The notes under the pieces are model-generated. The model did no database searches, was not told the DNA's origin, and was given only the letters and a program-made list of their open reading frames with translations. Below are positions 24,361-49,704 of a DNA stretch of 64,000 bases, piece by piece. Both the position numbers and the translations under genes were made by a program. Source of the stretch: Acidobacteriota bacterium (GTDB lineage Bacteria > Acidobacteriota > UBA6911); NCBI GenBank assembly GCA_012729555.1, contig JAAYCX010000051.1, positions 17,882-81,881 of the forward strand, in the 5' to 3' direction. Position 1 is the first letter of the stretch, and each line of letters begins with the position of its first letter.

Positions 24361-26058
24361 ATGAAGCGTACACTGTTCCCCCTGGCCGCCCTCGCCCTCG
24401 GCGCCGCGGGAGTGCTGGCCCCGCCGGCACCCCTTGCGGCGGAGCCCTCCGCCCGGTACGAGGTCCTGAGCCCCTGGGCCGAGGTCGATCCCGTCCCCCT
24501 GCGGGGCCTTTCGCCCCGCCTCGATTCCCTGGCGGGAAAAAAGATCGGAATTTTCGCCAACTACAAGCGCGCGGCGCTGCCGGTGGCCGAGGCGATCGAA
24601 AAGAACCTGAAGACCCTCCACCCGGACATCCAGACCGTCCTCTTCCATTCGACCGAATGGAACGTCACCGAGGTCGAGACCGCCGACCGTGAAACGTTCA
24701 CCGCCTGGGCCAAGGGGGTGGACGCCGTCGTCGGCGTCATCGGCGATTGAGGATCCTGCACGAAGTTCCTCGTCTATAACGGCATATCGATCGAGGACTT
24801 CGGCACGCCGGTCGTGTTACTGGCACATCCAGGATTCGTAAGAGACGCACAGAGCGCAGCCTCCGGCAAGGGAATGCCGGGCATCAGGGTGCGCCCCATC
24901 CAAATAGCCAACGAAACCACCGTGGCCGCCGACATCGAAGCCGGCGCCTCCGGGGCGATGCCCGGCATCGTCGCCGCCCTGACCGATCCGCTGACGGCCG
25001 GGGAGCGCTCCCCCAAAAGGGATGCGGCCGCTCCCCCCCGCGTCGCCTTCGCGGGGGATTACGAGGCGGTCAACCGCTTCTTCTACCGCAAGGGGTGGAC
25101 CGACGGGCTCCCCATCGTCCCCCCGACCGAAAAGGCCGTGGCCGAAATGCTCGAGGGGACCGACCTGCCGCCCGACCACCTGGTGGCCCGCGTCATCCCG
25201 CGCCTGGGAAAGGCGACGGTCGAGAAGATCGCCGTCAACGCCGTCATGGCGGGGGCGCTGCCGACCCACATGCCGGTGCTCCTGGCCGCCGTGCGCGCGC
25301 TCATGAACCCGAAATCGCGCTTCGACACCTTCGAGGTGAGCACCGGGTCGTGGGCCCCCTTCTTCGCCCTCAACGGCCCCGTCCGCAATGACATCCTCGT
25401 CAATTCCGGCTCGGGCGCCCTCAGCCCGGGCGACATCGCCAACGCCGCCATCGGCCGCGCCGTGGGCCTCATCGTCAAGAACATCGGGGGGGCCCGCAAG
25501 GGGATCGAGGACATGGGCGTCATCGGCAACCCCTCCAAGTACAGCCTCGTCATCGGCGAAAACGAGGAGGAGAGCCCCTGGACCCCGCTGCACGTCGACC
25601 GCGGTTTCCGCAGGGAGGAGAGCACCCTGACCCTCTTCTTCCCCAACGGCTTCGCCCAGTCGGTCCCGCGCGCCACCAGCGCGGAGGGGATCGCCCGGGC
25701 GCTCGCCGACATGGGGCCCTGGAGCATGTCGTGCCTCATCGTCATCCCCTCCCACGCCCGCATCCTGGCCGACGAAGGGTGGACGAAGGAGAAGCTCCAG
25801 GAGTACATCCTCCGAAACGCCGCCGACCCCTTCGCCGCCATCGGCGAAAAACCGGACGTTTTGTCGGCGCCCCCGGCCCTCAACCGCGGCGGGTTGCTGA
25901 TCCTGGTCGCCGGCGGCCCCGGCGCCTGGATGGGGATGCTGCGCAGCGTGGGGGGGATCGAAAACGACTTCGTCACCGAGCCGATCGAGTTCCCCAAAAA
26001 CTGGGACTCCCTGGTAAGGAAGTACAGGAACGTCCGCCCCACCTACGAAGACTACTAG
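24361..26058 (+). CDS. candidate selenoprotein: ~130-aa secreted N-terminal domain ending in a U-G-S-C motif (in-frame TGA 24748-24750), continuing in-frame into a conserved ~415-aa domain (GWTDGLPIVPPTEKAVAEML...). Conventional annotation would split it into 24361-24750 and 24814-26058.
   Basis: TGA at codon 130 is followed by GGA TCC TGC (G-S-C). The downstream ORF is in the same frame (both start coordinates are 1 mod 3). An 11-bp bulged hairpin begins 11 nt after the TGA, where a bacterial SECIS would be expected. The paralog at 46809-48569 has the same architecture, with conserved sequence spanning the TGA. Confidence 0.5.
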
Positions 26059-38386: not shown

Positions 38387-38539
38387 AACGGTTGGTCTCG
38401 CGGGGCGCGCTGGAGGCTGCTCCAGCACAGCCAAACGCGCGTCCCCCTGGCTCATCCCTGCCACGCGGGCGTTCCATCGCTTCCGACGCCACGGAAAGTT
38501 CTCCATGGCATGATTTTAAATGCCCTGGTATGATAAAGC

Positions 38540-38794
38540 ATGAAAGGAACCACTATGAAAACAGCACCCTTTGCCACCAAACTACCAGCGGACCTGATTG
38601 CCGAGCTCGATGATGTCTGCAAGGCCCTCGGGCTGAAAAAGAACTTTGTCCTCGAAGCCGCCTTGAGGGAAAAACTCGAGGACCTGGTGGATGCCGCCGA
38701 CCTTCAGCATGCCATCAGGGAAGCCACAGGCTTCCATGCGTGGGAAGACATCAAGCGTGAGGATCGCCTGACAAGGGGCAAAATTGCCATATAA
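38540..38794 (+). CDS. type II antitoxin (RelB/DinJ or ribbon-helix-helix type)
   Basis: Small acidic 84-aa protein overlapping a RelE/ParE toxin gene by 11 nt. Confidence 0.6.
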   Translation: MKGTTMKTAPFATKLPADLIAELDDVCKALGLKKNFVLEAALREKLEDLVDAADLQHAIREATGFHAWEDIKREDRLTRGKIAI

Positions 38795-39038
38795 GCTCGA
38801 GCTGGAAACCCATGCGCGCCGTGAATACCGCGATTTGCCGATGCACGTGCGCGAACAGATCGCTGATGTCCCGGACGATCTGCAGAGGAATCCGCGTCCG
38901 CCGGGAGGCAAAAAACTGGTGGGGACAACAGGCTATCGCGTCAGAATGGGAGATTACCGCATTCTCTATACAATTGACGATGCATCATCGGTGGTGCGCG
39001 TGTACCGGATCGGGCACCGTCGTGAGATCTACCGCTGA
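38784..39038 (+). CDS. relE: type II toxin, RelE/ParE family
   Basis: C-terminal motif GYRVRMGDYRILYTIDDASSVVRVYRIGHRREIY. Confidence 0.8.
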   Translation: MPYKLELETHARREYRDLPMHVREQIADVPDDLQRNPRPPGGKKLVGTTGYRVRMGDYRILYTIDDASSVVRVYRIGHRREIYR

Positions 39039-39161
39039 GACCGGTCCCGGCCCGTGTCGTTCAGGAGACCGGCAGAGCCGGGACGTCCCCAGATTTCGTC
39101 ACCGCAGGGGGGAGCGACCCGTAGCCGGGGGGCTTTTGTCTTTTTCCGGCGAGGCCTGACG

Positions 39162-39380
39162 TCAGGCTGCTTCTCTCGGCTTGTAATGCAGAACCAACAG
39201 CTGGTCTTCTTTCAGCGCCAGACTGGCATAGGCGCGGCCGTCATTATCCGCAAACTCCACCTCAAACACATCCTGCCCCAGCAGCTCGACAACCGTTCCC
39301 ACTTGTCCACGGCGAAGTTTCCGGGCAGGCAGCTCGTCCGTCAATGCCACAACATCAAGAAGCTTGATGCTTTCGCTCAT
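39162..39380 (-). CDS. DUF4926 domain protein
   Basis: MSESIKLLDVVALTDELPARKLRRGQVGTVVELLGQDVFEVEFADNDGRAY matches the DUF4926 family as I recall it. Start at the internal ATG 39380. Lies immediately downstream of the DUF6883 gene. Confidence 0.6.
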   Translation of the reverse strand: MSESIKLLDVVALTDELPARKLRRGQVGTVVELLGQDVFEVEFADNDGRAYASLALKEDQLLVLHYKPREAA

Positions 39381-39391
39381 TTCATCTTCCT

Positions 39392-39784
39392 CTACAATAC
39401 ATAGCAACTCGTCAATCGGGGAAAATCCTCTCCCCGGCGAACGATCCAACTGCTTCGGACCACCGCCTGTCCCGATGGCCCGGTTATGCTGAAGTCTACC
39501 ACATACCGTCTACCATACTCATCGTGCTCTTCCGGCATTGCATCATTGTTTACTGCCGCCGCCCGCAGCGCACGCTGAAGATCCTGGACATGTTCAAGCG
39601 TGATCCCCAGTGATGACTTGAAGACCCGAGCCTTGTGGCACCCACGACGATGCTCGGGATTCAGGCAGTAATCCTGCAGCTTCTTTCCATCAACGACAGC
39701 CCGTTCTCCATTCGGCAGTTTCACCGTGTCGCTCTCCCTTGGGCATTGTAACACGACCCCATTTCTTTTCCGGCTCCTCGACAA
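39392..39784 (-). CDS. DUF6883 domain protein
   Basis: KLQDYCLNPEHRRGCHKARVF motif (KLxDYxLNxxH..GxxKAxxF). This family is usually encoded next to DUF4926. Confidence 0.6.
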   Translation of the reverse strand: MSRSRKRNGVVLQCPRESDTVKLPNGERAVVDGKKLQDYCLNPEHRRGCHKARVFKSSLGITLEHVQDLQRALRAAAVNNDAMPEEHDEYGRRYVVDFSITGPSGQAVVRSSWIVRRGEDFPRLTSCYVL

Positions 39785-39791
39785 GCTTTCG

Positions 39792-39811
39792 TTCAGGTCG
39801 TGCCGGGTGCG
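39792..39811. repeat. degenerate copy of the tRNA-Arg 3' end (candidate right attachment-site remnant)
   Basis: TTCAGGTCGTGCCGGGTGCG versus tRNA 3' TTCGAGTCGTGCCGGGCGCA: an 11-nt exact core (GTCGTGCCGGG) and 15/20 positions overall (17/21 if the preceding G at 39791 is included). Confidence 0.35.
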
Positions 39812-40092
39812 TGGCCGTGTAGATCAACTTCAGCTTTTGGTTTTCAAGCGTTCGGCCGTGGCGGCTTTTGGGTGTTCGCTAACAGAATTTGTGAGTTTCC
39901 CAATATCCCTATTCGAAATCCGATTTGTGCTGCTTGGATTCACGCCCTCTGGACGCGCAAGAGTTCCGGTGGTTTAATGGTACGGGAACCCGGATTCTGG
40001 GGGAATTCGCGGCTGGAGCCGCAATACCTGCAAGCGGGCAATAGATGGCCGGGGGTCGCGTGGGGGATCTATCGGAATTTCACATATACCGG

Positions 40093-40404
40093 CTAATGCT
40101 TCCCATCGCATCTTCTATTTCGTACAAATATCCATTCCAACAAATAGAGAAGACTCCATAGTGCAGCGGCGTAAAATGGAAATGACACTCCCCAATAGAT
40201 CTTGATGCGGTCGAAGTGGGAACCCTCTCCCAAAAGAAGGTCGAGAAAGCCAATGGCTGGTATATATAAACAATCCATTATCTTGTCAAATGCTGTTAAA
40301 TCGTCCTGTGATGACACAAACCGAAAGCTGGTACTCATCGCAAAAACAATGCACATCGACAGGCAACATGAAATTAGGAATCGAAGAATTTTACGCTTGT
40401 TCAT
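40093..40404 (-). CDS. small hypothetical membrane protein in the low-GC segment
   Basis: 103-aa ORF with two hydrophobic segments. AT-rich codon usage unlike the rest of the window. Weak call. Confidence 0.25.
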   Translation of the reverse strand: MNKRKILRFLISCCLSMCIVFAMSTSFRFVSSQDDLTAFDKIMDCLYIPAIGFLDLLLGEGSHFDRIKIYWGVSFPFYAAALWSLLYLLEWIFVRNRRCDGKH

Positions 40405-40570
40405 CTGATGTTGACCCCAAAATCCCGACGCACCCTAGCTTTGTCAATGTCCCATTATCTAGCCTAGAGCTTGTTTAGCTTCCTGATTTCATCATCTCTA
40501 ATCAATTGTTGATTCATAGGAAAAAGCTTCTGTTCTTCCTGCTTTCTAGTGGGCACCCCCCCATATTGGC

Positions 40571-40870
40571 TCACCAACCTGCCAGAAATGATACTGGCGC
40601 AGGGGGGCGCTGCATACTGATCCAACGCAGTTCGGTGAATTTCTCCAGGCCCGCCCGGACGCCGAACCGACCCCAGCCGCTGCCCTTGATCCCCCCGAAG
40701 GGGATCTTCGGCTCGTCGTGCACGGTCTGGTCGTTGATGTGCACGATCTCCGATTCGTTCCTCTCTCCGCGTTGTCTCCGCTTAATCATTGCACAGAATT
40801 TCCCAACTGGTTTGTCCTGTTTTGAGTGCCATGATTCCTCCCGTTGTTCGGGGGTATCATAGGCATTCAC
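40571..40870 (-). pseudogene. aldehyde dehydrogenase 3'-terminal gene fragment (remnant)
   Basis: The last ~55 codons (IVHINDQTVHDEPKIPFGGIKGSGWGRFGVRAGLEKFTELRWISMQRPP) are near-identical to the C-terminus of the intact ALDH at 41539-42996. The upstream part is unrelated low-GC sequence. Confidence 0.6.
40590..40757. repeat. 168-bp direct repeat, copy A (ALDH 3' end)
   Basis: About 90% identical to 41547-41714. Marks the left end of a ~790-bp low-GC insert. Confidence 0.7.
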
Positions 40871-40995
40871 CAGGCCCTTGGGAATGAGGGGATCATTGCA
40901 CGCTTACCTACTTGCGCATGAAAAACAGTGGCCCAGTCATGCAAGAAGAGTGAACTTACAGAAAATATGTCGCTCTGTCGGGGATCAATGCACGC

Positions 40996-41478
40996 TTACT
41001 CTTCATCACCGTAATATTGAAAGTCGAAAGTACACTCGAGATTCAGATCGGCTAGATTACGCATTTGCTTTGGCCAAAGCGTCGGACCGCCTCCTCCGAA
41101 TTGAGACCACCAGATGCAATGTACAAGCATTTCGACCCCTCTTTCTGCCTGAAGCAATTTTATGGCTTCAGTACGTGGTTCCAATCTTTCATATATCCAA
41201 TCCAGGTGGCGTCTCAGATCTTTCGATATGACAAATGTTTCGGAAGACAAAAACCAACAGTTAACTTTGTCAATCCGAACACGTCCCGTCATAATGCCAT
41301 AATGCTTCTCCCCAGCAATTACCTCTTCCGTTGGTTTAATTCCCATTATCTCGGTCACTTCCGAGGGTTTCATTTTACCTGAGTAGATACGCAATTCTGC
41401 GCATGTCCGTTCACAGGATTCATCCGAATCATCGATTGGGTGTAAAAAAAGGAAATTATCTGTTTTGTTATCAATCAT
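40996..41478 (-). CDS. DUF4279-like protein encoded in the low-GC insert
   Basis: AELRIYSGKMKPSEVTEIMGIKPTEEVIAGEK resembles the DUF4279 N-terminal motif as I recall it. GC content is far below the window average. Confidence 0.45.
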   Translation of the reverse strand: MIDNKTDNFLFLHPIDDSDESCERTCAELRIYSGKMKPSEVTEIMGIKPTEEVIAGEKHYGIMTGRVRIDKVNCWFLSSETFVISKDLRRHLDWIYERLEPRTEAIKLLQAERGVEMLVHCIWWSQFGGGGPTLWPKQMRNLADLNLECTFDFQYYGDEE

Positions 41479-41538
41479 CGCAGATAATGTACAATATTAC
41501 CAGGTTCGCAAAATCCAACTGTTTATGACACGGTAGTA

Positions 41539-42996
41539 CTAGAAAGGATACTGGCGCGGGGAGCGCTGCATGCTGATCCAGCGCAGCTCGGTGAATTCCT
41601 CCAGGCCCGCGCGGCCGCCGAACCGGCCCCAGCCGCTGTCCTTGATCCCCCCGAAGGGGACCTGCGGCTCGTCGTGCACGGTCTGGTCGTTGATGTGCAC
41701 GATCCCCGATTCGATCCGCTCGGCGATGGCCAGCCCCCGGTTGAAATCGCGCGTGATCACCGAGGCGGAGAGCCCGTAGCGGGTTTCGTTCGCCACGGCG
41801 ATCGCCTGCTCGACGTCGTCCACCTCGATGATGGACACCACCGGGCCGAAGGTCTCCTCGCAGCTGAAGGGGGTGCCGGGCCGGGCTCCCGCGACCACGG
41901 TCGGGAGGTAGCAGGGGCCCTCGGCCCTGCCTCCGCACAGGATCCGCGCGCCGTCCCTGACGGCGCCCGCCACGCTCTTCTGGATGTCCTCGAGCTGGCC
42001 CCGGTTGATGATCGGCCCGATGACGGTTTCCGGGTCGCGGGGGTTCCCCACCTTGAGGCCCGACACCCGCTTGACGAACTGCTCGGTGAAGCGGGCGGCC
42101 ACCGGGCGCTCGATCAGGATGCGGCGCGTGGACATGCAGATCTGCCCCTGGTGGAGGAAGGCGCCGAAGGTGGCGGCGCGCACGGCGTGATCGATGTCGG
42201 CGTCGGCGAGGATGATCATGGGGTTCTGCCCCCCCAGTTCCAGGGCCACGCGCTTGAGGTGGCGCCCCGCCTTCTCGGCCAGCTGGCGCCCGACGGAGGA
42301 GGAACCGGTCATGGAGATGCGGCGCACGATCGGGTTCTCGATGAACTCGTCCCCGATTTCGCCGCTCCGGCCGGGACCGTTGGTGACGACGTTCAGGACC
42401 CCTTTGGGAAAGCCGGCCTGGTGGAACACCTCGGCGATCAGGACGCCGCCGGCGGCCGAGGACTCGGTCGAGGGCTTGAGCACCGCCGTGTTGCCGTACG
42501 CGATGGGCATGCAGATCGAGCGCAGCGACAGGATCAGCGGCGCGTTCCAGGGCCCGATGCCGGCCACCACCCCCACCGGCTGGCGCAGGGTCATGTGAAA
42601 GGCGCCGGGGAGGTCGGAGGGGAGGATTTCCCCGGCGGACTGGTGCACCTGGGAAGCGGCCTCCCGCAGCAACCCGGGGGTGAAGCCCGCCTGGAACATG
42701 GCAAAACCGGAGGCGCAGCCCGTCTCCTCCGCGAGAATGGCCACGACTTCGTCCCTCTTCTGCTCCAGGATATCGCCGGCCTTGAGGAAGAGGCGCCGGC
42801 GCTCGGAGGGGAGGGTGCGGGACCAGGCCGGGAACGCGGCCGCGGCGGCGGCCACCGCGCGGGCGGCGTCGGCCCGCTTGCCCGAGGCCACGCGGGCGAA
42901 AACCTCCCCGGTGAAGGGATTGAAGTCCTCGTAGAACTCGCCGTCGGCCGCCTCGCTCCACGCCCCGTCGATGTACATCCGGTATTCCCTGACCAT
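41539..42996 (-). CDS. NAD(P)-dependent aldehyde dehydrogenase
   Basis: ALDH glutamate and cysteine active-site regions (LELGGQNP, FLHQGQICMSTRR). 485 aa. Confidence 0.9.
   Translation of the reverse strand: MVREYRMYIDGAWSEAADGEFYEDFNPFTGEVFARVASGKRADAARAVAAAAAAFPAWSRTLPSERRRLFLKAGDILEQKRDEVVAILAEETGCASGFAMFQAGFTPGLLREAASQVHQSAGEILPSDLPGAFHMTLRQPVGVVAGIGPWNAPLILSLRSICMPIAYGNTAVLKPSTESSAAGGVLIAEVFHQAGFPKGVLNVVTNGPGRSGEIGDEFIENPIVRRISMTGSSSVGRQLAEKAGRHLKRVALELGGQNPMIILADADIDHAVRAATFGAFLHQGQICMSTRRILIERPVAARFTEQFVKRVSGLKVGNPRDPETVIGPIINRGQLEDIQKSVAGAVRDGARILCGGRAEGPCYLPTVVAGARPGTPFSCEETFGPVVSIIEVDDVEQAIAVANETRYGLSASVITRDFNRGLAIAERIESGIVHINDQTVHDEPQVPFGGIKDSGWGRFGGRAGLEEFTELRWISMQRSPRQYPF
41547..41714. 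repeat. 168-bp direct repeat, copy B (within the 3' end of the intact ALDH gene)
   Basis: About 90% identical to 40590-40757. Confidence 0.7.
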
Positions 42997-43104: not shown

Positions 43105-43881
43105 CTACTGCAGCAACCGGCGGTAGACCGCCTCGTCGCCGGCCGTGAACACGTCGAAGACCACCCGGGCGACCCCGCACCCCCGGTCGAGGGTCTCCCG
43201 GACCGTGCGCACGGCGATCCCGGCGGCCTCCTCCCGCGGGAAGCGGAAGACCCCGGTGGAGATCGCGCAGAAGGCAACGGCGCGGCAGCCGTTCTCTTCG
43301 GCCAGCCTAAGACAGCGGGAGTAGCAGGAAGCGAGCAGCTCCCGGTCGCGCTCCGACACCCGCGCGTGGATGATGGGCCCCACCGTGTGGAGCACGTATC
43401 GCGCCGGGAGGTTGTAGCCGGGGGTGATCTCGGCCCGCCCGGTCGGTTCCGGGTGCCCCTGCCGCTCCATGATCTCGTGGCACCGCAGCCGCAACTGCAC
43501 CCCGGCCCAGGTGTGGATGCAGTTGTCGATGCAGTCGTGGCACGGCTCCCAGCACCCTTCCATCCGGCTGTTGGCGGCGTTGACGATGGCGTCTATCCGC
43601 AGCGTGGTGATGTCCCCCCGCCACAGGACCAGGCGCGGGTCGGCCGTCGCCGGCAGGGCGTCGGCGTCGACCACCCCCCGCCGGGCCGTCTCCGCCTGCA
43701 GGTACTCGTCCTGCACCCGGAGGAATTCCTCGCCAGCCGGGCGGGCGGGGCGGACGTTCATGAGGGAGCGGAGCAGCCGCCACCGTTCCTCCCCTCCCTG
43801 CGGAACCGCCACGCCGCGGTACCGGTCGTCTTCCGCCAGCAGCGCCTCGATCAGGGTCCGCAGCCTCTCCTCCTGGGTCAT
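43105..43881 (-). CDS. macrodomain protein (MacroD-like ADP-ribose / O-acetyl-ADP-ribose hydrolase) with ~75-aa N-terminal extension
   Basis: LVLWRGDITTLRIDAIVNAANSRMEG and GYNLPARYVLHTVGP macro motifs. Start at ATG 43881 (ATGA overlap with the Sir2 stop); the track's 43105..44271 ORF carries a spurious G/R-rich extension. Confidence 0.8.
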   Translation of the reverse strand: MTQEERLRTLIEALLAEDDRYRGVAVPQGGEERWRLLRSLMNVRPARPAGEEFLRVQDEYLQAETARRGVVDADALPATADPRLVLWRGDITTLRIDAIVNAANSRMEGCWEPCHDCIDNCIHTWAGVQLRLRCHEIMERQGHPEPTGRAEITPGYNLPARYVLHTVGPIIHARVSERDRELLASCYSRCLRLAEENGCRAVAFCAISTGVFRFPREEAAGIAVRTVRETLDRGCGVARVVFDVFTAGDEAVYRRLLQ

Positions 43882-44846
43882 GCCCCCTCCCCGGCCGCCA
43901 CGCCCGCCGGCGCGCCCGCCGGTGCGCCTTCCGCCTTCGCGAACCGGACGTGCAGCCGTTCGATCACCTCGCCGGCGTCCCACGGCATCGGGGTCGCCCG
44001 CCCCGCGAGTTCGGCCGGGACCATGGCGAAGCCCCCGTGGCCGGGCCACTCCCGGTACTCCCGGTTGACGCGGAAGAGGTGGGCCCGCCCGTGCAGGTGC
44101 GCCAACCGCTCGAAGGGCCAGCGGATGACCCCCGGGGTGTTGAACCCCACCCCAAGTTCGAGGATGCAGAGGCGTCCGCCCGCGGTCCCCTCGATCCACT
44201 CCTCGTAGCGCCCCCGCTCCTCCCGGTACCCATCGAAGGAGCGGAACGCCGTCGCGAGCGACGCCCCGCACGAGGGGCAGCGGGGGATGGCGCTCTCATC
44301 GGAAATCGTGAAGGTCTCCGGGTCGATGAGCGGGAGGAGCCGGTCGATGACGGGCTCGACGGCCCAGGTCTCCCGCGTGCAGCCGGCCGTGCAGCGGAGC
44401 CGGTCGTAGCTCCCCTGGGCCTCGAACACCCGCTCCATGGGGAAGCCGGTGCGCAAAAGCTGCCGGTCGCAGTTGGAGGTGACGACGAAAAAATCCCGCC
44501 CCGCAAGGAGCGCGAGGAGTTTCCGGTAGAGTTCGGCCGGGGGGAAGACGTGGCGCACGAAATGGATATGCCGGACGAGGTAGGCCCACTCCCTCGCCTC
44601 GGGCCACCCTTCCTTCTCCCGCTCGAACAGCTGGTAGGGGTAGTGGTAGCCCCGGGCCGCCATCTCGGGCTGAAACCGCCGGAAGAGGTCCTCGTCGAGG
44701 TAGCTGAGCCCGGCGGCGGCCGAAAGCCCGGCCCCCGCGCCGACGAGGACCCGGTCGGAATTCTCGAGCCACTCCCCCAGGGCGTCGACCGCTTCCGCCA
44801 GCCCTCCGCTCCCGGCCTTCGCGTATATCCACTCACTCTCACGCAT
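43878..44846 (-). CDS. Sir2-family (sirtuin-like) NAD-dependent protein
   Basis: GAGLSAAAGL (GAGxS NAD loop). TSNCDRQL (TQNID-like). Zn ribbon CTAGC...CPSCG. LELGVG. The canonical HG catalytic motif appears as QGS in the region where I would expect it (by-eye alignment). Confidence 0.7.
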   Translation of the reverse strand: MRESEWIYAKAGSGGLAEAVDALGEWLENSDRVLVGAGAGLSAAAGLSYLDEDLFRRFQPEMAARGYHYPYQLFEREKEGWPEAREWAYLVRHIHFVRHVFPPAELYRKLLALLAGRDFFVVTSNCDRQLLRTGFPMERVFEAQGSYDRLRCTAGCTRETWAVEPVIDRLLPLIDPETFTISDESAIPRCPSCGASLATAFRSFDGYREERGRYEEWIEGTAGGRLCILELGVGFNTPGVIRWPFERLAHLHGRAHLFRVNREYREWPGHGGFAMVPAELAGRATPMPWDAGEVIERLHVRFAKAEGAPAGAPAGVAAGEGA

Positions 44847-44987
44847 CCGGACCTCCCCGCAAACCTTTCCATATTACCCATCGGGGGGGAGGGCGTAAAG
44901 GGCGCTCCGGCCCCGGGGCCGGGCCCGATTTTGGACCGGGCGCCGTCCGAACCGGTGTAAAATCGAAGGAAGGAAACGGAGGGGGAC

Positions 44988-45896
44988 ATGCTGGACATTG
45001 AGGGGAAGGGGGCCTTCGTCACGGGGGGCGCCAGCGGGATCGGGCTCGGGATCGCCGAAGCGATGGTCGACGCCGGCATGAAGGTGGTGATCGCCGACAT
45101 GCAGGAGGACTACCTCGGGGAGGCCCTCCGGGGCTTCCGGCAGCGGGGGCGCGGAGAGAGCGTGCACGGGCTGCTCCTCGACGTGACCGACCGCGCGGCT
45201 TTCGAGCAGGCGGCCGACGAGGCGGAGGGGGTGTTCGGCAAAATTCACGTGCTCTCTGCCAACGCCGGCGTCGGCATCCTCGGCCCGGTCGGGGACGCGA
45301 AATACGGCGACTGGGACTGGGCCCTGGGAGTGATGGTCGGCGGCGTCGTCAACGCCCTCCAGGTTTTCCTCCCCCGCATCCTGCGCCACGGCGAGGGGGG
45401 GCACATCGTCGCCACCTCCTCCATGTCGGGGGTGCTCCCGCTGCCGGGCACCGCCATCTACTCGACGGCCAAGGGGGCGGTCGTGGCCCTGTGCGAGGCG
45501 CTGCGGGGGGAACTGGCCCCGGACAAGATCGGAATATCCGCCTTCTGCCCCGGGCCGGTGGCCACCCGGATCAGCCGGACCGGGCGTCTCCGGCCGGAAA
45601 AGTACCGGAAGGAGAGCGGCTACGCCGAAATGGAGCGCCGGATCGAGAACCGCCCCGCCTTCCGGAGCGAGATGAGCCCCGGGGAGTGCGGCCGGAGGGT
45701 GCTCGACGGCATCCGGCGCAACGATCTGTACATCTTCACCCACCGGGAATTCCGGGAAGGGGTCGCGGAAAAAATGGAGGCCATGCTCGCCTCCTTCCCG
45801 GACGAGCCGGTCGACGGCGCACGGGCGAAGGAATTCGCCTTTCTGACCTCCAATCCCATATACCGGGAGATCCTCGAAAGGAAGGGGCGCGCATGA
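44988..45896 (+). CDS. SDR-family short-chain dehydrogenase/reductase
   Basis: TGGASGIGLG Rossmann motif and YSTAK catalytic motif. Confidence 0.85.
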   Translation: MLDIEGKGAFVTGGASGIGLGIAEAMVDAGMKVVIADMQEDYLGEALRGFRQRGRGESVHGLLLDVTDRAAFEQAADEAEGVFGKIHVLSANAGVGILGPVGDAKYGDWDWALGVMVGGVVNALQVFLPRILRHGEGGHIVATSSMSGVLPLPGTAIYSTAKGAVVALCEALRGELAPDKIGISAFCPGPVATRISRTGRLRPEKYRKESGYAEMERRIENRPAFRSEMSPGECGRRVLDGIRRNDLYIFTHREFREGVAEKMEAMLASFPDEPVDGARAKEFAFLTSNPIYREILERKGRA

Positions 45897-46792
45897 AGAA
45901 CGTGGAAGGGAAGGTGGCCTTCATCACCGGCGGGGCGAGCGGCGCCGGCCTGGGGATGGCCCGGGTGTTTCTGAAAAACGGGATCCGGGTCGCGATCGCC
46001 GACATCCGCCGGGACAGCCTCGACCGCGCCATGGCCGGGTTCGAGCGGGGGGCGGAAGTGCACCCGATCCTGCTCGACGTGGCCGACCGCGAGGCGATGG
46101 CGCGCGCGGCCGACGAGACCGAACGGGTGTTCGGCCGGGTGCACATCGTGTGCAACAACGCCGGGATCAACCTCTTCGTCCCGATCGAGGAGTGCACCTA
46201 CAACGACTGGGACTGGGTCATGGGGGTCGATTTCGGCGGGGTGGTCAACGGCGTCCAGACCTTCGTCCCCCGCATCCGGCGGCACGGCGAAGGGGGCCAC
46301 ATCGTCAACACCGCCTCGATGGCCGCCTTCCTGCCGAGCCCGCTGGCGGGGGCGTACACGGCCGCCAAGTTCGCCGTGCGCGGCCTGAGCGAGGCGCTCC
46401 GGCTGAGCCTCTACCACCACAACATCGGCGTCTCGGTCTTCTGCCCCGGGCTGATCAACAGCGCGATCTACGAAAGCGAAAAGATGCGGCCCGATGCGCT
46501 CCCCTCGCCCGAAAACACCGAGCGCAACCGCCGCTTCATGGACCGGCTCCCCGAAATCCACCGGTTCGGGATGGACCCGGAGGAGGTGGGGGAAAAGGTC
46601 CTGGCCGGAATCCGCGCCAACGACCTCTACATCTTCAGCCACCCCGAATTCCGGGACGAACTGAGGGAGATGTTCGACCGGACGCTCGCGGCCGTCCCCG
46701 CGGGGGAGGTCCCGGCCGAGCGCCTGGCGTTCGAGCAGGGGCGGCGCGAGGGGCTCGAAAAGGACAGGAAAGGGGCCGACGCGATCGGCTGA
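45893..46792 (+). CDS. SDR-family short-chain dehydrogenase/reductase (tandem paralog)
   Basis: TGGASGAGLG and YTAAK motifs. ATGA overlap with the upstream SDR. Start at ATG 45893; the track's 45491 start is an extension. Confidence 0.85.
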   Translation: MKNVEGKVAFITGGASGAGLGMARVFLKNGIRVAIADIRRDSLDRAMAGFERGAEVHPILLDVADREAMARAADETERVFGRVHIVCNNAGINLFVPIEECTYNDWDWVMGVDFGGVVNGVQTFVPRIRRHGEGGHIVNTASMAAFLPSPLAGAYTAAKFAVRGLSEALRLSLYHHNIGVSVFCPGLINSAIYESEKMRPDALPSPENTERNRRFMDRLPEIHRFGMDPEEVGEKVLAGIRANDLYIFSHPEFRDELREMFDRTLAAVPAGEVPAERLAFEQGRREGLEKDRKGADAIG

Positions 46793-46808
46793 CAGGGAGA
46801 AACGTACG

Positions 46809-48569
46809 ATGACGACACGGAAACGGATGGTGGTGCTGAACCCGGAAGGCCCCCTGGTCCCGGTGACCGAAGGTTCGGGGGCGGGCGTTCCCCGCTGGGA
46901 GATGGCGGCGCGCCCCGAAAGCCTCGACGGCAAAACGGTGTACCTCGTCAACCAGGGCTTCGGGGGGAGCGATCGCTTCATGGAGCAGCTGCAGGCGTGG
47001 TTCGCCCGGCACATGCCGACGGTCCGGACCGTGGTGAAGCGCAAGACGGGCTTCATCTTCCGGGACGACACCCGCGACCTGTGGAAGGAGATCAAGGAAA
47101 AGGGGGACGCCGTCGTCTTCGGGGTCGCGGGTTGACCCGGCTGCGTCACGGCGGTCGCCGGATGTTGCCGCACCCTCGAGCTGAAATACGGGATCCCCAC
47201 CGCGCCGGTTTCGACCATCGCCTTTGAACGCATGGAGCGGGAAGACCGCGAGTTTCACGGGGTCCCCCTGCGCTTCGTCTTCACGCCCCACCCCGTGGTC
47301 TCGATGCCCCCCGCGGTCCTCGCCCGCTACATCGAGGGGAACGACCCGGCCACCGGGCGTCCGGTGATCGCGGAGATCCTCGAGGCCCTCACCCGCCCCT
47401 ATTCCGAAGAGGAGAGCCGCAACCACGCCGTCGTGCGCCCCGTCCCGGAGCACCGGCGCCTGCTCGAGCCGGACACGGAGGAAAACCTCGAGCGCCTGTT
47501 CACCGAGCGCGGGTGGAGCGACGGGCTCCCCGTCGTGCTGCCGACCGAGGAGCGGGTGGCGCGCATGCTCGCCGGCACCGGCCAGAGGCCCGACAAGCTG
47601 GCGGGGAAGGCGCTGCTCGTCGACACGCAGGAAACCCTGAGGGTCTCGGTCGAGGCGGTCGCCGTCGCCGCGGTGATGGCCGGGGCGGGGCCGGAGCACC
47701 TCCCGGTGCTGCTGGCCGTCGCCTCGGCGGGGCAGCCGGCGATCCAGCCCTCGACCCTCCCCTTCGCCAGCGCGCTCCTGGTCAACGGCCCGATCCGGGG
47801 CGAGATCGGGATGAATTCAGGGATGGGGGCCCTGGGACCCTACAGCCGGGCCAACGCCGTCATCGGGCGCGCCTGGACCCTGATGAGCATCCTGTGGGGA
47901 TACGCCCGGCCCCGCCGCACCTTCTGGACCTCCCAGGGGAACAACTATTCCTACAACAACCTCTGCATGGCCGAAAACGAGGAGCGGAGCGTCTGGGAGC
48001 CGTTTCACGTCACGAAGGGGCACGGCGCCGGCGAGAGCGTCGTCAGCCTCTTCCGGGGGTGGAACCTGATCAACAGCATGGGGGCCGCGGCCCGGCGCTC
48101 CTGGGGGGAGGAGGTCCGGATCCAGATGCAGGCGCTCCCCGCCCTCTATTCCGCCGCCACCCTGATCCTGGACCCGCTCACGGCGCGCCACCTCCGGGAG
48201 AACGAGGGGTTCGCAAGCAAGGCCGACGCGAGCCGCTGGATTTCCGAAAACGTGACCCTTCCCGCGGGCCGCTTCTGGGGCAACGACATCATCGACATGC
48301 TGGTGACGCCGCTGGCCCTGGCCGGGGTGAAGCCCTACGCCGACTGGAAGCGGCTGCCGGAGGACGCCCCCATCGCCCCCTACCACCGGCCGGACAAGGT
48401 GAACCTCCTGGTCGTGGGGGGGGAGACGAGCCCGTTGTGGAAGATTTCCGATTTCGACCATGTCGCCACCGTCTCCGTCGATCGGTGGCGTCCCGGCGCG
48501 CCCGCACCCCGGGGCGGGGAGGAAGGCGCGGACGGGGGGCGCGGCGCCTACGAGGGCACACGGGAGTGA
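46809..48569 (+). CDS. candidate selenoprotein, paralog of 24361-26058: ~108-aa N-terminal domain ending U-P-G-C (in-frame TGA 47133-47135), same-frame continuation into a conserved ~445-aa domain (GWSDGLPVVLPTEERVARML...). Conventional annotation would split it into 46809-47135 and 47232-48569.
   Basis: TGA at codon 109 is followed by CCC GGC TGC. 46809 and 47232 are both 0 mod 3. Sequence between the TGA and the first downstream Met is conserved with module 1 (...YNGISIEDFGTP / ...KYGIPTAPVSTI). A GC-rich imperfect hairpin lies at 47137-47161. Confidence 0.45.
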
Positions 48570-48570
48570 A

Positions 48571-49704
48571 ATGATCGGCCTCGTCAGCAGCCCGGACACC
48601 CGGCAGAAGCTCGAGATCCTGAGCGCGGACGCCCAGTACGACCTGGCGTGCGCCTGCGGCACCGGCAAGGACGACCGCCGGCGGCGAGGGTCCGGGGACG
48701 GCTGGATCTATCCCGTGACCCTCGCCGGCGGGGGCACGAGCGTCCTGTTCAAGACCCTGGTCTCGAACGTCTGCGCCAACGACTGCCTCTACTGCCCGCT
48801 GCGGGCGGACCAGGACGTGCGCCGCTGCGCCCTCACCGGGGAGGAGACCGTCCGGGCCTTCCTCGATTACTACACGCGCGGCAGGGTGTTCGGCCTCTTT
48901 CTCACCTCGGGGGTGCCGGGAACGCCCGACGCCGCCATGGAGCAGCTGATCCGCGTCGCCCGCATCCTGCGCACCCGGCACGGCTTCAGGGGCTACATCC
49001 ACCTCAAGATCATCCCGGGCGCCAGCGCCGCCGCCGTCGAGGAGGCGGTTTCCCTCTCGACCGCGGTCTCGCTCAACATCGAGACCCCCGGGGCGCGCCA
49101 CCTCGCCCGCCTCTCCCGGCGCAAGGACTTCCTGCACGACATCGTGGAGCCGATCAAGCTGGTCAGCCGCCTGACGGCCCCCGGCGCGCGCTACGAGCGG
49201 GTGAAGCAGACCACCCAGTTCGTGGTGGGGGCGGCGGAGGAGACCGACGCCGAGATCGTGCGCTACATGGGGGGGCTCTACGACCGGCTCCGGCTCCAGC
49301 GCGTCTACTTCAGCGCCTACCAGAAGGGGCCGGGGGACTCCGCGCCGGCGGGGGAGGGCGCACGGACCGGCCGGGACGCCCTGGCCCGGGAACACCGCCT
49401 CTACCAGGTCGATTTCCTGATGCGGCGGTACGGGTTCGCCGCCGCGGAGATCGGCTTCGACCCCTCCGGCAACCTCCCGCTGGAACTCGACCCGAAGGAG
49501 GAGTGGGCGCGGAGGCACCCGGAGTTCTTCCCGCTGGACATCAACCGCGCTCCCGCGCGCGACCTGCTGCGGGTCCCGGGGCTGGGGGAGGTCACCGTGC
49601 GCCGGATCGTGGAGCGGCGCAAGGGCTCGAGGATCCGGGCCCTCGACGAGGTGGCCCGTCCCACGGCGTGGATCCGGAAGGCGGGAGGATACCTCAGAGC
49701 CTAG
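48571..49704 (+). CDS. radical SAM protein, putative DNA modification/repair type (CxxxCxxC + C-terminal HhH)
   Basis: CANDCLYC cluster motif. C-terminal helix-hairpin-helix (DLLRVPGLGEVTVRRIV). Starts 2 nt after the selenoprotein-candidate stop. Confidence 0.7.
   Translation: MIGLVSSPDTRQKLEILSADAQYDLACACGTGKDDRRRRGSGDGWIYPVTLAGGGTSVLFKTLVSNVCANDCLYCPLRADQDVRRCALTGEETVRAFLDYYTRGRVFGLFLTSGVPGTPDAAMEQLIRVARILRTRHGFRGYIHLKIIPGASAAAVEEAVSLSTAVSLNIETPGARHLARLSRRKDFLHDIVEPIKLVSRLTAPGARYERVKQTTQFVVGAAEETDAEIVRYMGGLYDRLRLQRVYFSAYQKGPGDSAPAGEGARTGRDALAREHRLYQVDFLMRRYGFAAAEIGFDPSGNLPLELDPKEEWARRHPEFFPLDINRAPARDLLRVPGLGEVTVRRIVERRKGSRIRALDEVARPTAWIRKAGGYLRA

What the first reader, a model, noticed from the sequence alone, without database searches (positions are those of the whole stretch)
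43105..44846. Overlapping Sir2-macrodomain gene pair (possible ADP-ribosylation writer/eraser or DarTG-like toxin-antitoxin/defence module)
A Sir2-family gene (43878-44846) overlaps by 4 nt (ATGA) with a MacroD-like macrodomain gene (43105-43881), so the two are translationally coupled. Sirtuin-macro linkage is known from the SirTM operons, where the sirtuin ADP-ribosylates a protein and the macrodomain reverses it. Here the GcvH-L/LplA2 partners of those operons are absent.

In the position where I align the sirtuin catalytic HG motif, the sequence reads QGS. If that alignment holds, it would point to NADase or ADP-ribosyltransferase chemistry rather than deacylation.

Sir2 NADase domains and macrodomains are both recurrent in antiphage systems (Thoeris, DSR, DarTG). 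The pair also sits at the edge of a region rich in TA modules and low-GC insertions.
Basis: partly seen in the sequence, partly recalled or inferred. Interest (0 to 1): 0.6.

Follow-up and report, generated by a model that had tools for sequence, protein, structure and literature searches.

The report
Lone SirTM sirtuin and zinc-macrodomain pair
These two overlapping genes are a textbook "minimal" SirTM/zinc-macrodomain operon, an enzyme that attaches ADP-ribose to a protein and a partner that removes it. The kind is already described, here it sits in an environmental Acidobacteriota genome, and nothing points to a toxin-antitoxin or anti-phage role.

Summary
A 322-aa Sir2-like gene (43878-44846, minus) and a 258-aa macrodomain gene (43105-43881, minus) overlap by ATGA, and the sirtuin reads QGS where other sirtuins have the catalytic HG.

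The QG motif is the published signature of class M sirtuins (SirTM), which ADP-ribosylate proteins rather than deacylate them. The sirtuin's best solved relatives are the Fusarium Mfs1 fusion (8RSN) and S. pyogenes SirTM (5A3A). It keeps N125, Q144, R202, the GVGFNTP motif and four zinc cysteines, and its AlphaFold model (pLDDT 90) matches the SirTM structures best.

The macrodomain passes NCBIfam's protein-ADP-ribose hydrolase model. It carries the Zn-Macro signatures Cx4HxC, NAAN and Dx3H, plus the N-terminal extension.

GcvH-L and LplA2 are absent from the window and from 70 related loci. Such lone pairs ("minimal operon") are already described, with their substrate unknown.

PADLOC gives no hit. 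The pair has host GC content and no presence on viral contigs. Many homologues lack an adjacent macrodomain. The toxin-antitoxin/defence reading is therefore not supported.

Verdict: a new member of a known kind, of low interest. Side finding: two UGSC-fusion selenoprotein genes with in-frame TGA.

The parts
43878..44846 (-). sirTM: class M sirtuin (322 aa), predicted NAD+-dependent protein mono-ADP-ribosyltransferase. Key residues: GAGAG 36-40, N125, Q144-G145-S146, zinc Cys 152/156/190/193, R202, GVGFNTP 232-238. Low-complexity Ala/Gly/Pro tail from about 308 to 322.
   Evidence: PDB phmmer: 8rsn 1.8e-37, 5a3a 4.6e-23, next-best canonical sirtuin 0.025. Pfam SIR2 only 17.3 bits, below the gathering score of 24. 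Invariant residues in 56 homologues. Motif positions. AF2 pLDDT 90.2. Foldseek top hits 8rsn and 5a3a, TM 0.74/0.82.
43105..43881 (-). Zn-Macro: zinc-dependent MacroD-type macrodomain (258 aa), predicted protein-ADP-ribose hydrolase. NAAN 101-104, Zn loop C110-x4-H115-x-C117, D119-x3-H123, N-terminal extension of about 80 aa.
   Evidence: NCBIfam NF003163 at 335.8 bits, above the cut-off of 272. Pfam Macro 1e-37. PDB 5kiv SauMacro 9.4e-73, 8rsi MorMacro 8.7e-72, 8rsm SpyMacro 1.3e-54. Motifs located.
43878..43881 (-). ATGA stop/start overlap (sirTM TGA and macro ATG), with a GGAGG-like motif just upstream inside the sirTM 3' end. This indicates translational coupling.
   Evidence: Sequence. 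The same 4-nt overlap occurs in L010, L013, L016, L017, L022, L024 and L026.
44852..44856 (-). Shine-Dalgarno-like GGAGG, 5 nt upstream of the sirTM ATG.
   Evidence: Read directly from the sequence (+ strand 'cctcc'). This is a consensus match only.
44847..44987 (.). 141-bp divergent intergenic region between sirTM and the first SDR gene (44988..45896, +). It presumably holds the pair's promoter.
   Evidence: ORF map. No sigma-70-like site was called here, so the promoter is inferred, not shown.

Best explanation
The two genes form a self-contained 'minimal' SirTM/Zn-Macro operon, a reversible protein mono-ADP-ribosylation switch. The sirtuin binds NAD+ in a Rossmann and zinc-ribbon fold. It uses N125, Q144 and R202 in place of the usual catalytic His to release nicotinamide and transfer ADP-ribose to a side chain of a target protein. 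That side chain is probably acidic, as with Asp27 of GcvH-L in the characterised system. The co-translated Zn-Macro uses its Cys110/His115/Cys117-bound zinc as a Lewis acid, together with the Asp119/His123 dyad, to hydrolyse the linkage, release ADP-ribose and reset the target. By analogy with the characterised systems, the switch most likely tunes a stress (redox) response. The target is encoded elsewhere in the genome and is not a dedicated GcvH-L. What is shown here is family membership, motif integrity, fold, gene coupling and the conserved pairing. What is inferred is the catalytic activity, the acceptor residue, the redox role and the identity of the target, which remains unknown.
For: Sequence: the closest solved relatives are SirTM proteins, 8rsn at 1.8e-37 and 5a3a at 4.6e-23, against 0.025 for a canonical Sir2.

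Class M signatures from Rack 2015 are all present. QG replaces HG (Q144, invariant in 56 homologues). The equivalents of Asn118, Gln137 and Arg192 are N125, Q144 and R202. The GVGx[NT]TP motif is GVGFNTP at 232-238. Four zinc cysteines are present.

Fold: the AF2 model has pLDDT 90.2. Foldseek ranks 8rsn (6e-20) and 5a3a (1e-18, TM 0.82), and all deacylase sirtuins score about ten orders of magnitude worse.

Macrodomain: NF003163 'protein-ADP-ribose hydrolase' at 335.8 bits, above the cut-off of 272. It scores 8.7e-72 to MorMacro, which comes from a minimal operon, and 9.4e-73 to SauMacro. It has Cx4HxC, NAAN and Dx3H as defined by Ariza 2024.

Linkage: the ATGA overlap. A macrodomain is adjacent in 31 of 70 related genome loci, and it is the only neighbour family that is widely conserved.

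Literature: lone pairs are a recognised arrangement whose macrodomains do not act on GcvH-L and whose substrates are unknown.
Against: No activity was measured, and the target is unknown. Pfam SIR2 scores below its gathering threshold (17.3 against 24), so the assignment rests on PDB and structure comparisons and on motifs rather than on a curated SirTM model. The redox-stress role is extrapolated from aerobic or facultative pathogens to an anaerobic-digester organism. About 25 QG-type homologues have no adjacent macrodomain, so the writer does not always need a linked eraser.
Confidence: 0.86

Rival explanations
1. Toxin-antitoxin or anti-phage module. The Sir2 protein would be a toxic NADase or ADP-ribosyltransferase, like DarT, ThsA or DSR, and the macrodomain would be its antitoxin, like DarG.
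For: The genes are tightly coupled as a writer/eraser pair. A low-GC island with ParE-type and other small TA-like genes lies 1.5-4.5 kb away. The pair looks horizontally mobile between phyla: the window lineage is sister to a Clostridia clade, while other Acidobacteriota carry a different clade with the reverse gene order.
Against: PADLOC gives no hit for either protein. There is no SIR2_2 match and no defence sirtuin among the top 50 fold matches. The macrodomain is a MacroD-type Zn-Macro, not DarG-type. The pair's GC of 0.71-0.74 equals the host's, and the aldehyde dehydrogenase gene separates it from the island. There are no hits in IMG/VR viral contigs, two doubtful phage records, and only 19 of 72,556 plasmids, mostly megaplasmids. 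QG-type homologues without a macrodomain occur in about 25 loci. S. aureus delta-macro is viable, and sirTM induction in a macro-less strain gave normal growth. Neighbours in relatives are housekeeping or transport genes.
Confidence: 0.04
2. Classical deacylase with clean-up. The sirtuin would be a protein deacetylase, as public annotation names it, and the macrodomain would hydrolyse its product O-acetyl-ADP-ribose.
For: Public sources name the protein 'NAD-dependent protein deacetylase of SIR2 family'. MacroD-type macrodomains can deacetylate O-acetyl-ADP-ribose, and NF001664 matches at 159 bits, below its cut-off of 200.
Against: The catalytic His is replaced by Gln in this protein and in all 56 aligned homologues. 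SirTMs showed no deacylase activity, and a Q-to-H substitution abolished activity. The CobB/deacylase NCBIfam models score 13-28 bits against cut-offs of 243-320.
Confidence: 0.04
3. The pair regulates a locally encoded redox enzyme. The candidates are the syntenic aldehyde dehydrogenase (41539-42996) and the UGSC selenoprotein/SDR cluster (44988-48569). One of these would replace lipoyl-GcvH-L as the target.
For: sirTM-macro-aldehyde dehydrogenase synteny is kept in the three related Acidobacteriota MAGs, L007-L009. UGSC-fusion genes lie within 3 kb of Macro/SirTM pairs in the window/L007 lineage and in L048, L052/L056 and L059, which have only 42-45% SirTM identity and different gene orders. 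Extended operons in Firmicutes are likewise flanked by oxidoreductases. Zn-Macros can also cleave Cys-ADP-ribose.
Against: None of 80 metagenomic UGSC-fusion loci carries SirTM or a macrodomain, whereas about 22 carry the SDR. The UGSC family is multi-copy, with two copies in this window alone, so chance adjacency is plausible. L009, at 87% SirTM identity, lacks the SDR/UGSC cluster. The aldehyde dehydrogenase link is confined to one lineage, and a promoter-like site sits between macro and that gene. The Sporobacter-clade relatives share no neighbour other than the macrodomain.
Confidence: 0.06

Closest known systems
Lone ('minimal operon') SirTM/Zn-Macro pairs, e.g. Methanobrevibacter oralis (MorMacro, PDB 8RSI), Enterococcus faecalis, Treponema pedis (Ariza et al. 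2024, PMC11490716; Rack et al. 2015, PMC4518038)
   Same: A two-gene unit made of a QG-type class M sirtuin and a zinc-loop MacroD-type macrodomain with an N-terminal extension. No GcvH-L or LplA2 is present. The macrodomain matches MorMacro at 8.7e-72.
   Different: The host is an environmental Acidobacteriota MAG from anaerobic digesters, a phylum not listed in those papers. The gene order is sirTM then macro with an ATGA overlap. The sirtuin has a short Ala/Gly/Pro-rich C-terminal tail.
Extended SirTM operon of Staphylococcus aureus / Streptococcus pyogenes (GcvH-L, SirTM, Macro, LplA2, plus LLM/OYE oxidoreductases)
   Same: The same two enzyme families and the same catalytic residues. 5a3a SpySirTM matches at 4.6e-23 with TM 0.82, and SauMacro matches at 9.4e-73. 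The presumed chemistry is also the same: reversible mono-ADP-ribosylation.
   Different: GcvH-L, LplA2, LLM and OYE are all absent. The lipoylation-dependent target is therefore missing. Macrodomains from minimal operons do not demodify GcvH-L.
Fungal Mfs1 (macrodomain-fused SirTM; Fusarium oxysporum, PDB 8RSN)
   Same: It is the best sequence and fold match to the sirtuin (1.8e-37 and 6.4e-20), including an identical QGSY motif. Its substrate is likewise unknown.
   Different: In Mfs1 the two domains are fused in one polypeptide, with the macrodomain N-terminal. Here they are separate, translationally coupled genes.
DarTG toxin-antitoxin and defence-type Sir2 systems (Thoeris ThsA, DSR)
   Same: Both use NAD+-consuming or ADP-ribosylating chemistry. 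In DarTG a macrodomain reverses the writer.
   Different: DarT has a PARP-like fold and modifies DNA, and DarG has a different macrodomain class. Defence Sir2 proteins belong to SIR2_2-type families with partner domains. None of these was detected here.

Membership tests
Class M sirtuin (SirTM) | Catalytic HG motif replaced by QG | tested here: met
   Q144-G145 aligns with the QG of SpySirTM and Foc1 Mfs1. Q144 is invariant in 56 homologues, and 58 of 62 locus-encoded homologues have QG.
Class M sirtuin (SirTM) | Genetic linkage to a Zn-Macro-type macrodomain in the same operon | tested here: met
   4-nt ATGA overlap. A macrodomain is adjacent in 31 of 70 related loci.
Class M sirtuin (SirTM) | Conserved Asn118 / Gln137 / Arg192 (SpySirTM numbering) and the class-specific GVGx[NT]TP loop | tested here: met
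   N125, Q144, R202 and GVGFNTP 232-238. All are invariant or nearly so.
Class M sirtuin (SirTM) | Sirtuin fold (Rossmann domain plus zinc-binding domain), closest to the SirTM structures | tested here: met
   AF2 pLDDT 90.2. Foldseek gives 8rsn 6e-20 and 5a3a 1e-18 (TMt 0.82), against 1e-9 or worse for other sirtuins. Cys152/156/190/193 are invariant.
Class M sirtuin (SirTM) | Robust protein ADP-ribosyltransferase activity and no deacylase activity | not testable with these tools
   This needs biochemistry.
Zn-Macro (zinc-dependent MacroD-type macrodomain) | Passes the curated protein-ADP-ribose hydrolase model | tested here: met
   NF003163 at 335.8 bits against a cut-off of 272, covering profile positions 3-261 of 265.
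Zn-Macro (zinc-dependent MacroD-type macrodomain) | Cx(4)HxC zinc loop replacing the catalytic loop, plus the NAAN motif and the Dx3H dyad | tested here: met
   C110-WEPC-H115-D-C117, NAAN 101-104 and D119-NCI-H123.
Zn-Macro (zinc-dependent MacroD-type macrodomain) | N-terminal three-helix-bundle extension | tested here: inconclusive
   Residues 5-80 align along their full length with the SauMacro and MorMacro N-terminal regions. No structure of this protein was modelled.
Extended SirTM operon (Lactobacillales / Staphylococcaceae type) | Flanking GcvH-L and LplA2 genes, often with LLM/OYE oxidoreductases | tested here: not met
   No GCV_H or lipoate-ligase family appears in the Pfam tables covering most of the window's called genes or in direct scans of selected long ORFs elsewhere. 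tblastn with a validated E. coli GcvH finds nothing in the window or in the 70 loci. LplA was judged only from the Pfam tables.
DarTG toxin-antitoxin | DarT-type ADP-ribosyltransferase toxin paired with a DarG macrodomain antitoxin; recognised by defence-system models | tested here: not met
   PADLOC gives no hit for either protein. The writer has a sirtuin fold, and the macrodomain is a MacroD-type Zn-Macro.
Defence-type Sir2 NADases (Thoeris ThsA, DSR1/2, SIR2-HerA) | SIR2_2/defence Sir2 domain with sensor or partner domains; a match to PADLOC models | tested here: not met
   PADLOC gives none. Pfam reports only a weak SIR2 match. The protein is a single 322-aa domain, and no defence sirtuin is among the top 50 fold matches.
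Canonical deacylase sirtuins (CobB; class III/U) | Catalytic His in the HG motif; passes the CobB/deacylase models | tested here: not met
   Gln sits at the His position. The NCBIfam deacylase models score 13-28 bits against cut-offs of 243-320.

The most novel reading that the evidence does not exclude
In this lineage the lone SirTM/Zn-Macro switch may act on a target other than a lipoyl carrier. The target could be a locally encoded redox enzyme: the syntenic aldehyde dehydrogenase, or the UGSC-fusion selenoprotein/SDR cluster that recurs next to Macro/SirTM pairs in several distant Acidobacteriota and Desulfobacterota lineages. That would define a new substrate class and a non-pathogen role for SirTM signalling.
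Probability: 0.08. Interest if true: 0.55.

Novelty: new member of a known kind. Interest (0 to 1): 0.2.

Why it matters
It matters only modestly. The locus extends the described lone SirTM/Zn-Macro operon to free-living anaerobic Acidobacteriota. It also shows at least two separate clades of the pair in that phylum, with opposite gene orders. This weakens the picture of SirTM as a trait of pathogens.

It corrects the public annotation ('NAD-dependent protein deacetylase') to a probable ADP-ribosyltransferase.

The real open question, what lone pairs modify, is not made more tractable by this locus. The only conserved neighbour across relatives is the macrodomain itself.

Tried and rejected
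1. Defence/TA classification was rejected. PADLOC returned nothing. No viral-contig relatives were found. Only 2 dubious phage records and 19 plasmid records appeared, mostly megaplasmids.

2. A search for GcvH-L and LplA2 found none. I used the Pfam tables for most of the window's called genes, direct scans of selected long ORFs elsewhere, and tblastn with a validated GcvH in the window and the 70 loci.

3. Neighbour clustering across 70 genome loci found no recurrent partner other than the macrodomain. Lineage-specific neighbours were a PilZ-like protein, a cupin-like protein, a cytidine-deaminase-like protein, hisH/hisF/ung and ABC transporters.

4. The lead that the UGSC selenoprotein is a partner was downgraded. 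It is adjacent in 4-5 lineages. However, 0 of 80 UGSC loci from metagenomes carry SirTM or a macrodomain, the family is multi-copy, and close relative L009 lacks it.

5. The lead that the aldehyde dehydrogenase is co-operonic stayed weak. The synteny holds only in L007-L009, and a promoter-like site lies in the 108-nt gap.

6. Terminator-like hits inside sirTM (44495-44517) were dismissed as chance, with 3 found against 1.8 expected.

7. One contig look-up failed because the start codon did not match the called gene.
Full report
**Observation**

ORF 43878..44846 (-) encodes a 322-aa protein. The macrodomain gene runs from the ATG at 43881 to 43105 (258 aa). The + strand reads 'tcat' at 43878-43881, so on the coding strand the macro ATG and the sirtuin TGA share ATGA. 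GGAGG-like ribosome-binding motifs precede both starts.

The ATG start of the macro gene, rather than the GTG of the longer 388-aa ORF, is supported by full-length alignments to SauMacro and to NCBIfam NF003163. The same 4-nt overlap recurs in at least seven relatives.

**What the sirtuin is**

Pfam SIR2 matches only weakly (17.3 bits, below the gathering score of 24). The CobB/deacylase NCBIfam models score 13-28 bits against cut-offs of 243-320. PADLOC finds nothing.

Against solved structures the picture is clear. The best matches are the Fusarium oxysporum macrodomain-fused SirTM (8RSN, 1.8e-37) and the S. pyogenes SirTM (5A3A, 4.6e-23). The next hit, a canonical Sir2, has E = 0.025.

Rack et al. 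[quoted passage not shown] They show that Asn118, Gln137 and Arg192 are needed for ADP-ribosylation, that Q137H is inactive, and that a GVGx[NT]TP loop is class-specific.

The window protein has N125, Q144, R202, GVGFNTP (232-238) and four zinc cysteines (152, 156, 190, 193). These are invariant or nearly so in alignments of 14 and 56 homologues.

An AlphaFold2 model built on the 56-sequence alignment is confident (pLDDT 90.2, pTM 0.87). Foldseek against the PDB ranks 8RSN (6e-20) and 5A3A (1e-18, TM 0.74/0.82) first. All deacylase sirtuins score about ten orders of magnitude worse, and no defence-type Sir2 is in the top 50.

**What the macrodomain is**

It passes NCBIfam NF003163 'protein-ADP-ribose hydrolase' (335.8 bits, cut-off 272). 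It matches SauMacro (5KIV, 9.4e-73), MorMacro (8RSI, 8.7e-72), SpyMacro (8RSM, 1.3e-54) and the macro half of Mfs1.

Ariza et al. 2024 define Zn-Macros by four features: a Cx(4)HxC zinc loop replacing the catalytic loop, the NAAN motif, a Dx3H dyad and an N-terminal three-helix bundle. The window protein has C110-WEPC-H115-D-C117, NAAN 101-104 and D119-x3-H123. Its first ~80 residues align with the N-terminal extension.

**Surroundings**

The window comes from an organism recovered repeatedly from anaerobic-digester metagenomes. NCBI attributes the identical protein to an Acidobacteria MAG and calls it a deacetylase.

Pfam tables for most of the window's called genes, together with direct scans of selected long ORFs elsewhere, show no GCV_H or lipoate ligase. 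tblastn with a validated E. coli GcvH finds nothing.

The neighbours are:
- an aldehyde dehydrogenase downstream, across a 108-nt gap that contains a promoter-like site;
- two SDR genes and a UGSC-family gene, divergently transcribed upstream.

The pair's GC content (0.71-0.74) equals the host's.

**Relatives**

A scan of one genome per species returned 70 loci. A profile search finds a Zn-Macro directly adjacent in 31 of them. Two are truncated at the critical side. The remaining 37 have none within several kb.

Clustering of all ORFs within 5 kb shows that the macrodomain is the only widely shared neighbour. No locus has GcvH.

A neighbour-joining tree places the window and three Acidobacteriota MAGs (87-89% identity; the same sirTM-macro-aldehyde dehydrogenase synteny) as sister to a Sporobacter/Oscillospirales clade (66-76% identity; the same gene order and overlap). 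Other Acidobacteriota and Desulfobacterota form a separate clade (41-46% identity) with the order macro then sirTM. The pair has therefore moved between phyla as a two-gene cassette. The direction of transfer was not determined.

A large Oscillospiraceae/Peptococcaceae group (42-55% identity) keeps QG but has no adjacent macrodomain.

**Comparison with what is known**

[quoted passage not shown] The GcvH-L/LplA2 extension is confined to Lactobacillales and Staphylococcaceae.

[quoted passage not shown] That paper shows such macrodomains do not demodify GcvH-L but do remove Asp/Glu-ADP-ribose from PARP1, and it notes that their substrates are unknown.

The absence of GcvH-L and LplA2 here is thus the expected state of a known arrangement, not an anomaly.

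**Toxin-antitoxin / defence reading**

Nothing supports it:
- no PADLOC hit;
- the wrong fold and domain classes for DarTG or for Thoeris/DSR;
- host-like base composition;
- no relatives on IMG/VR viral contigs, two doubtful phage records, and 19 of 72,556 plasmids, mostly megaplasmids;
- frequent macro-less homologues;
- in S. aureus, a viable delta-macro strain and normal growth when sirTM is induced in a strain lacking macro.

**Leads followed and downgraded**

The gene upstream (46809-47135), called as a 108-aa 'UGSC (weak)' protein in public gene calls, ends in TGA. It continues in frame into the '445-aa' ORF. With Sec/Cys at that codon the 586-aa product matches Pfam UGSC across the site (62.7 bits, gathering score 25). 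Homologues in L007, L052, L056 and L059 keep an in-frame TGA followed by xGC and a hairpin.

Such UGSC-fusion genes lie within 3 kb of Macro/SirTM pairs in four or five lineages. That suggested a redox partner analogous to lipoyl-GcvH-L.

However, none of 80 metagenomic UGSC-fusion loci carries SirTM or a macrodomain, while about 22 carry the same SDR type. The family is multi-copy, with a second paralogue at 24361-26058 in this window. The close relative L009 lacks the cluster. I therefore treat the link as unproven.

**Verdict**

The writer/eraser interpretation is right, and the NADase/TA/defence interpretation is not supported. The locus is a new, uncharacterised member of the known lone SirTM/Zn-Macro class. 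Its mechanism is inferred with good confidence. Its target is unknown.

Noticed in passing
window 46809-48569 (+); Sec codon TGA at 47133-47135: Public gene calls split this into a 108-aa 'UGSC (weak)' gene and a 445-aa gene with no family. It is one in-frame reading frame interrupted only by TGA, followed by PGC (a U-x-x-C motif). With Cys at that site the 586-aa product matches Pfam UGSC across the site (62.7 bits). Homologues in L007, L052, L056 and L059 keep the in-frame TGA, and a hairpin starts 5-6 nt downstream. It is probably a UGSC-fusion selenoprotein, a type noted by Zhang & Gladyshev 2008 (PMC2398784).
   Followed up: yes
window 24361-26058 (+); TGA at 24748-24750: A second UGSC-fusion paralogue: 565 aa, with the canonical U-G-S-C motif and a signal-peptide-like N-terminus. 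It is 29% identical to the first copy and is again split into two genes in public calls.
   Followed up: partly
window 44988-48569; metagenome loci L077-L156: About 22 of 80 metagenomic UGSC-fusion loci have an SDR of the same type as the window's two SDR genes (40-60% identity) right next to them, and several loci hold multiple UGSC paralogues. This suggests a functional SDR/UGSC-selenoprotein module of unknown role. None of the 80 loci carries SirTM or a macrodomain.
   Followed up: partly
window 38500-41540: A low-GC island (GC 0.42-0.59 against about 0.70 for the host) carries a ParE-type toxin/antitoxin pair, a DUF4926 gene and its neighbour, a small membrane ORF and a DUF4279 gene. The 3' end of the aldehyde dehydrogenase gene (41541-41721) is repeated at 40584-40765 (91% over 182 nt), flanking the DUF4279 gene. 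This looks like insertion(s) into the gene's 3' end with a replacement or duplicated end.
   Followed up: partly
loci L027-L041, L045, L050, L051, L054, L057, L060-L063, L072: About 25 Oscillospiraceae/Peptococcaceae homologues (42-55% identity) keep the QG motif but have no macrodomain within several kb. This is at odds with the definition of class M as macrodomain-linked. Their neighbours are varied, for example a cytidine-deaminase-like gene in four loci.
   Followed up: partly
loci L067-L076 (Lachnospiraceae): Distant homologues (28-38% identity) sit upstream of hisH, hisF and a uracil-DNA glycosylase gene. The four that entered the alignment have CG instead of QG or HG at the catalytic position.
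   Followed up: no
loci L020 and L025 (same Bacillota contig JAAYSO010000099.1): Two SirTM paralogues lie about 13 kb apart on one contig. One has an adjacent Zn-Macro. The other has none and sits next to an aldehyde dehydrogenase gene (32% identity to the window's).
   Followed up: no
window 48460-49704 (+): A radical SAM protein with an HHH motif resembles TIGR03916, 'putative DNA modification/repair radical SAM protein', but scores below the cut-off (282.8 against 343.5 bits). It lies directly downstream of the UGSC-fusion gene and overlaps its end.
   Followed up: no
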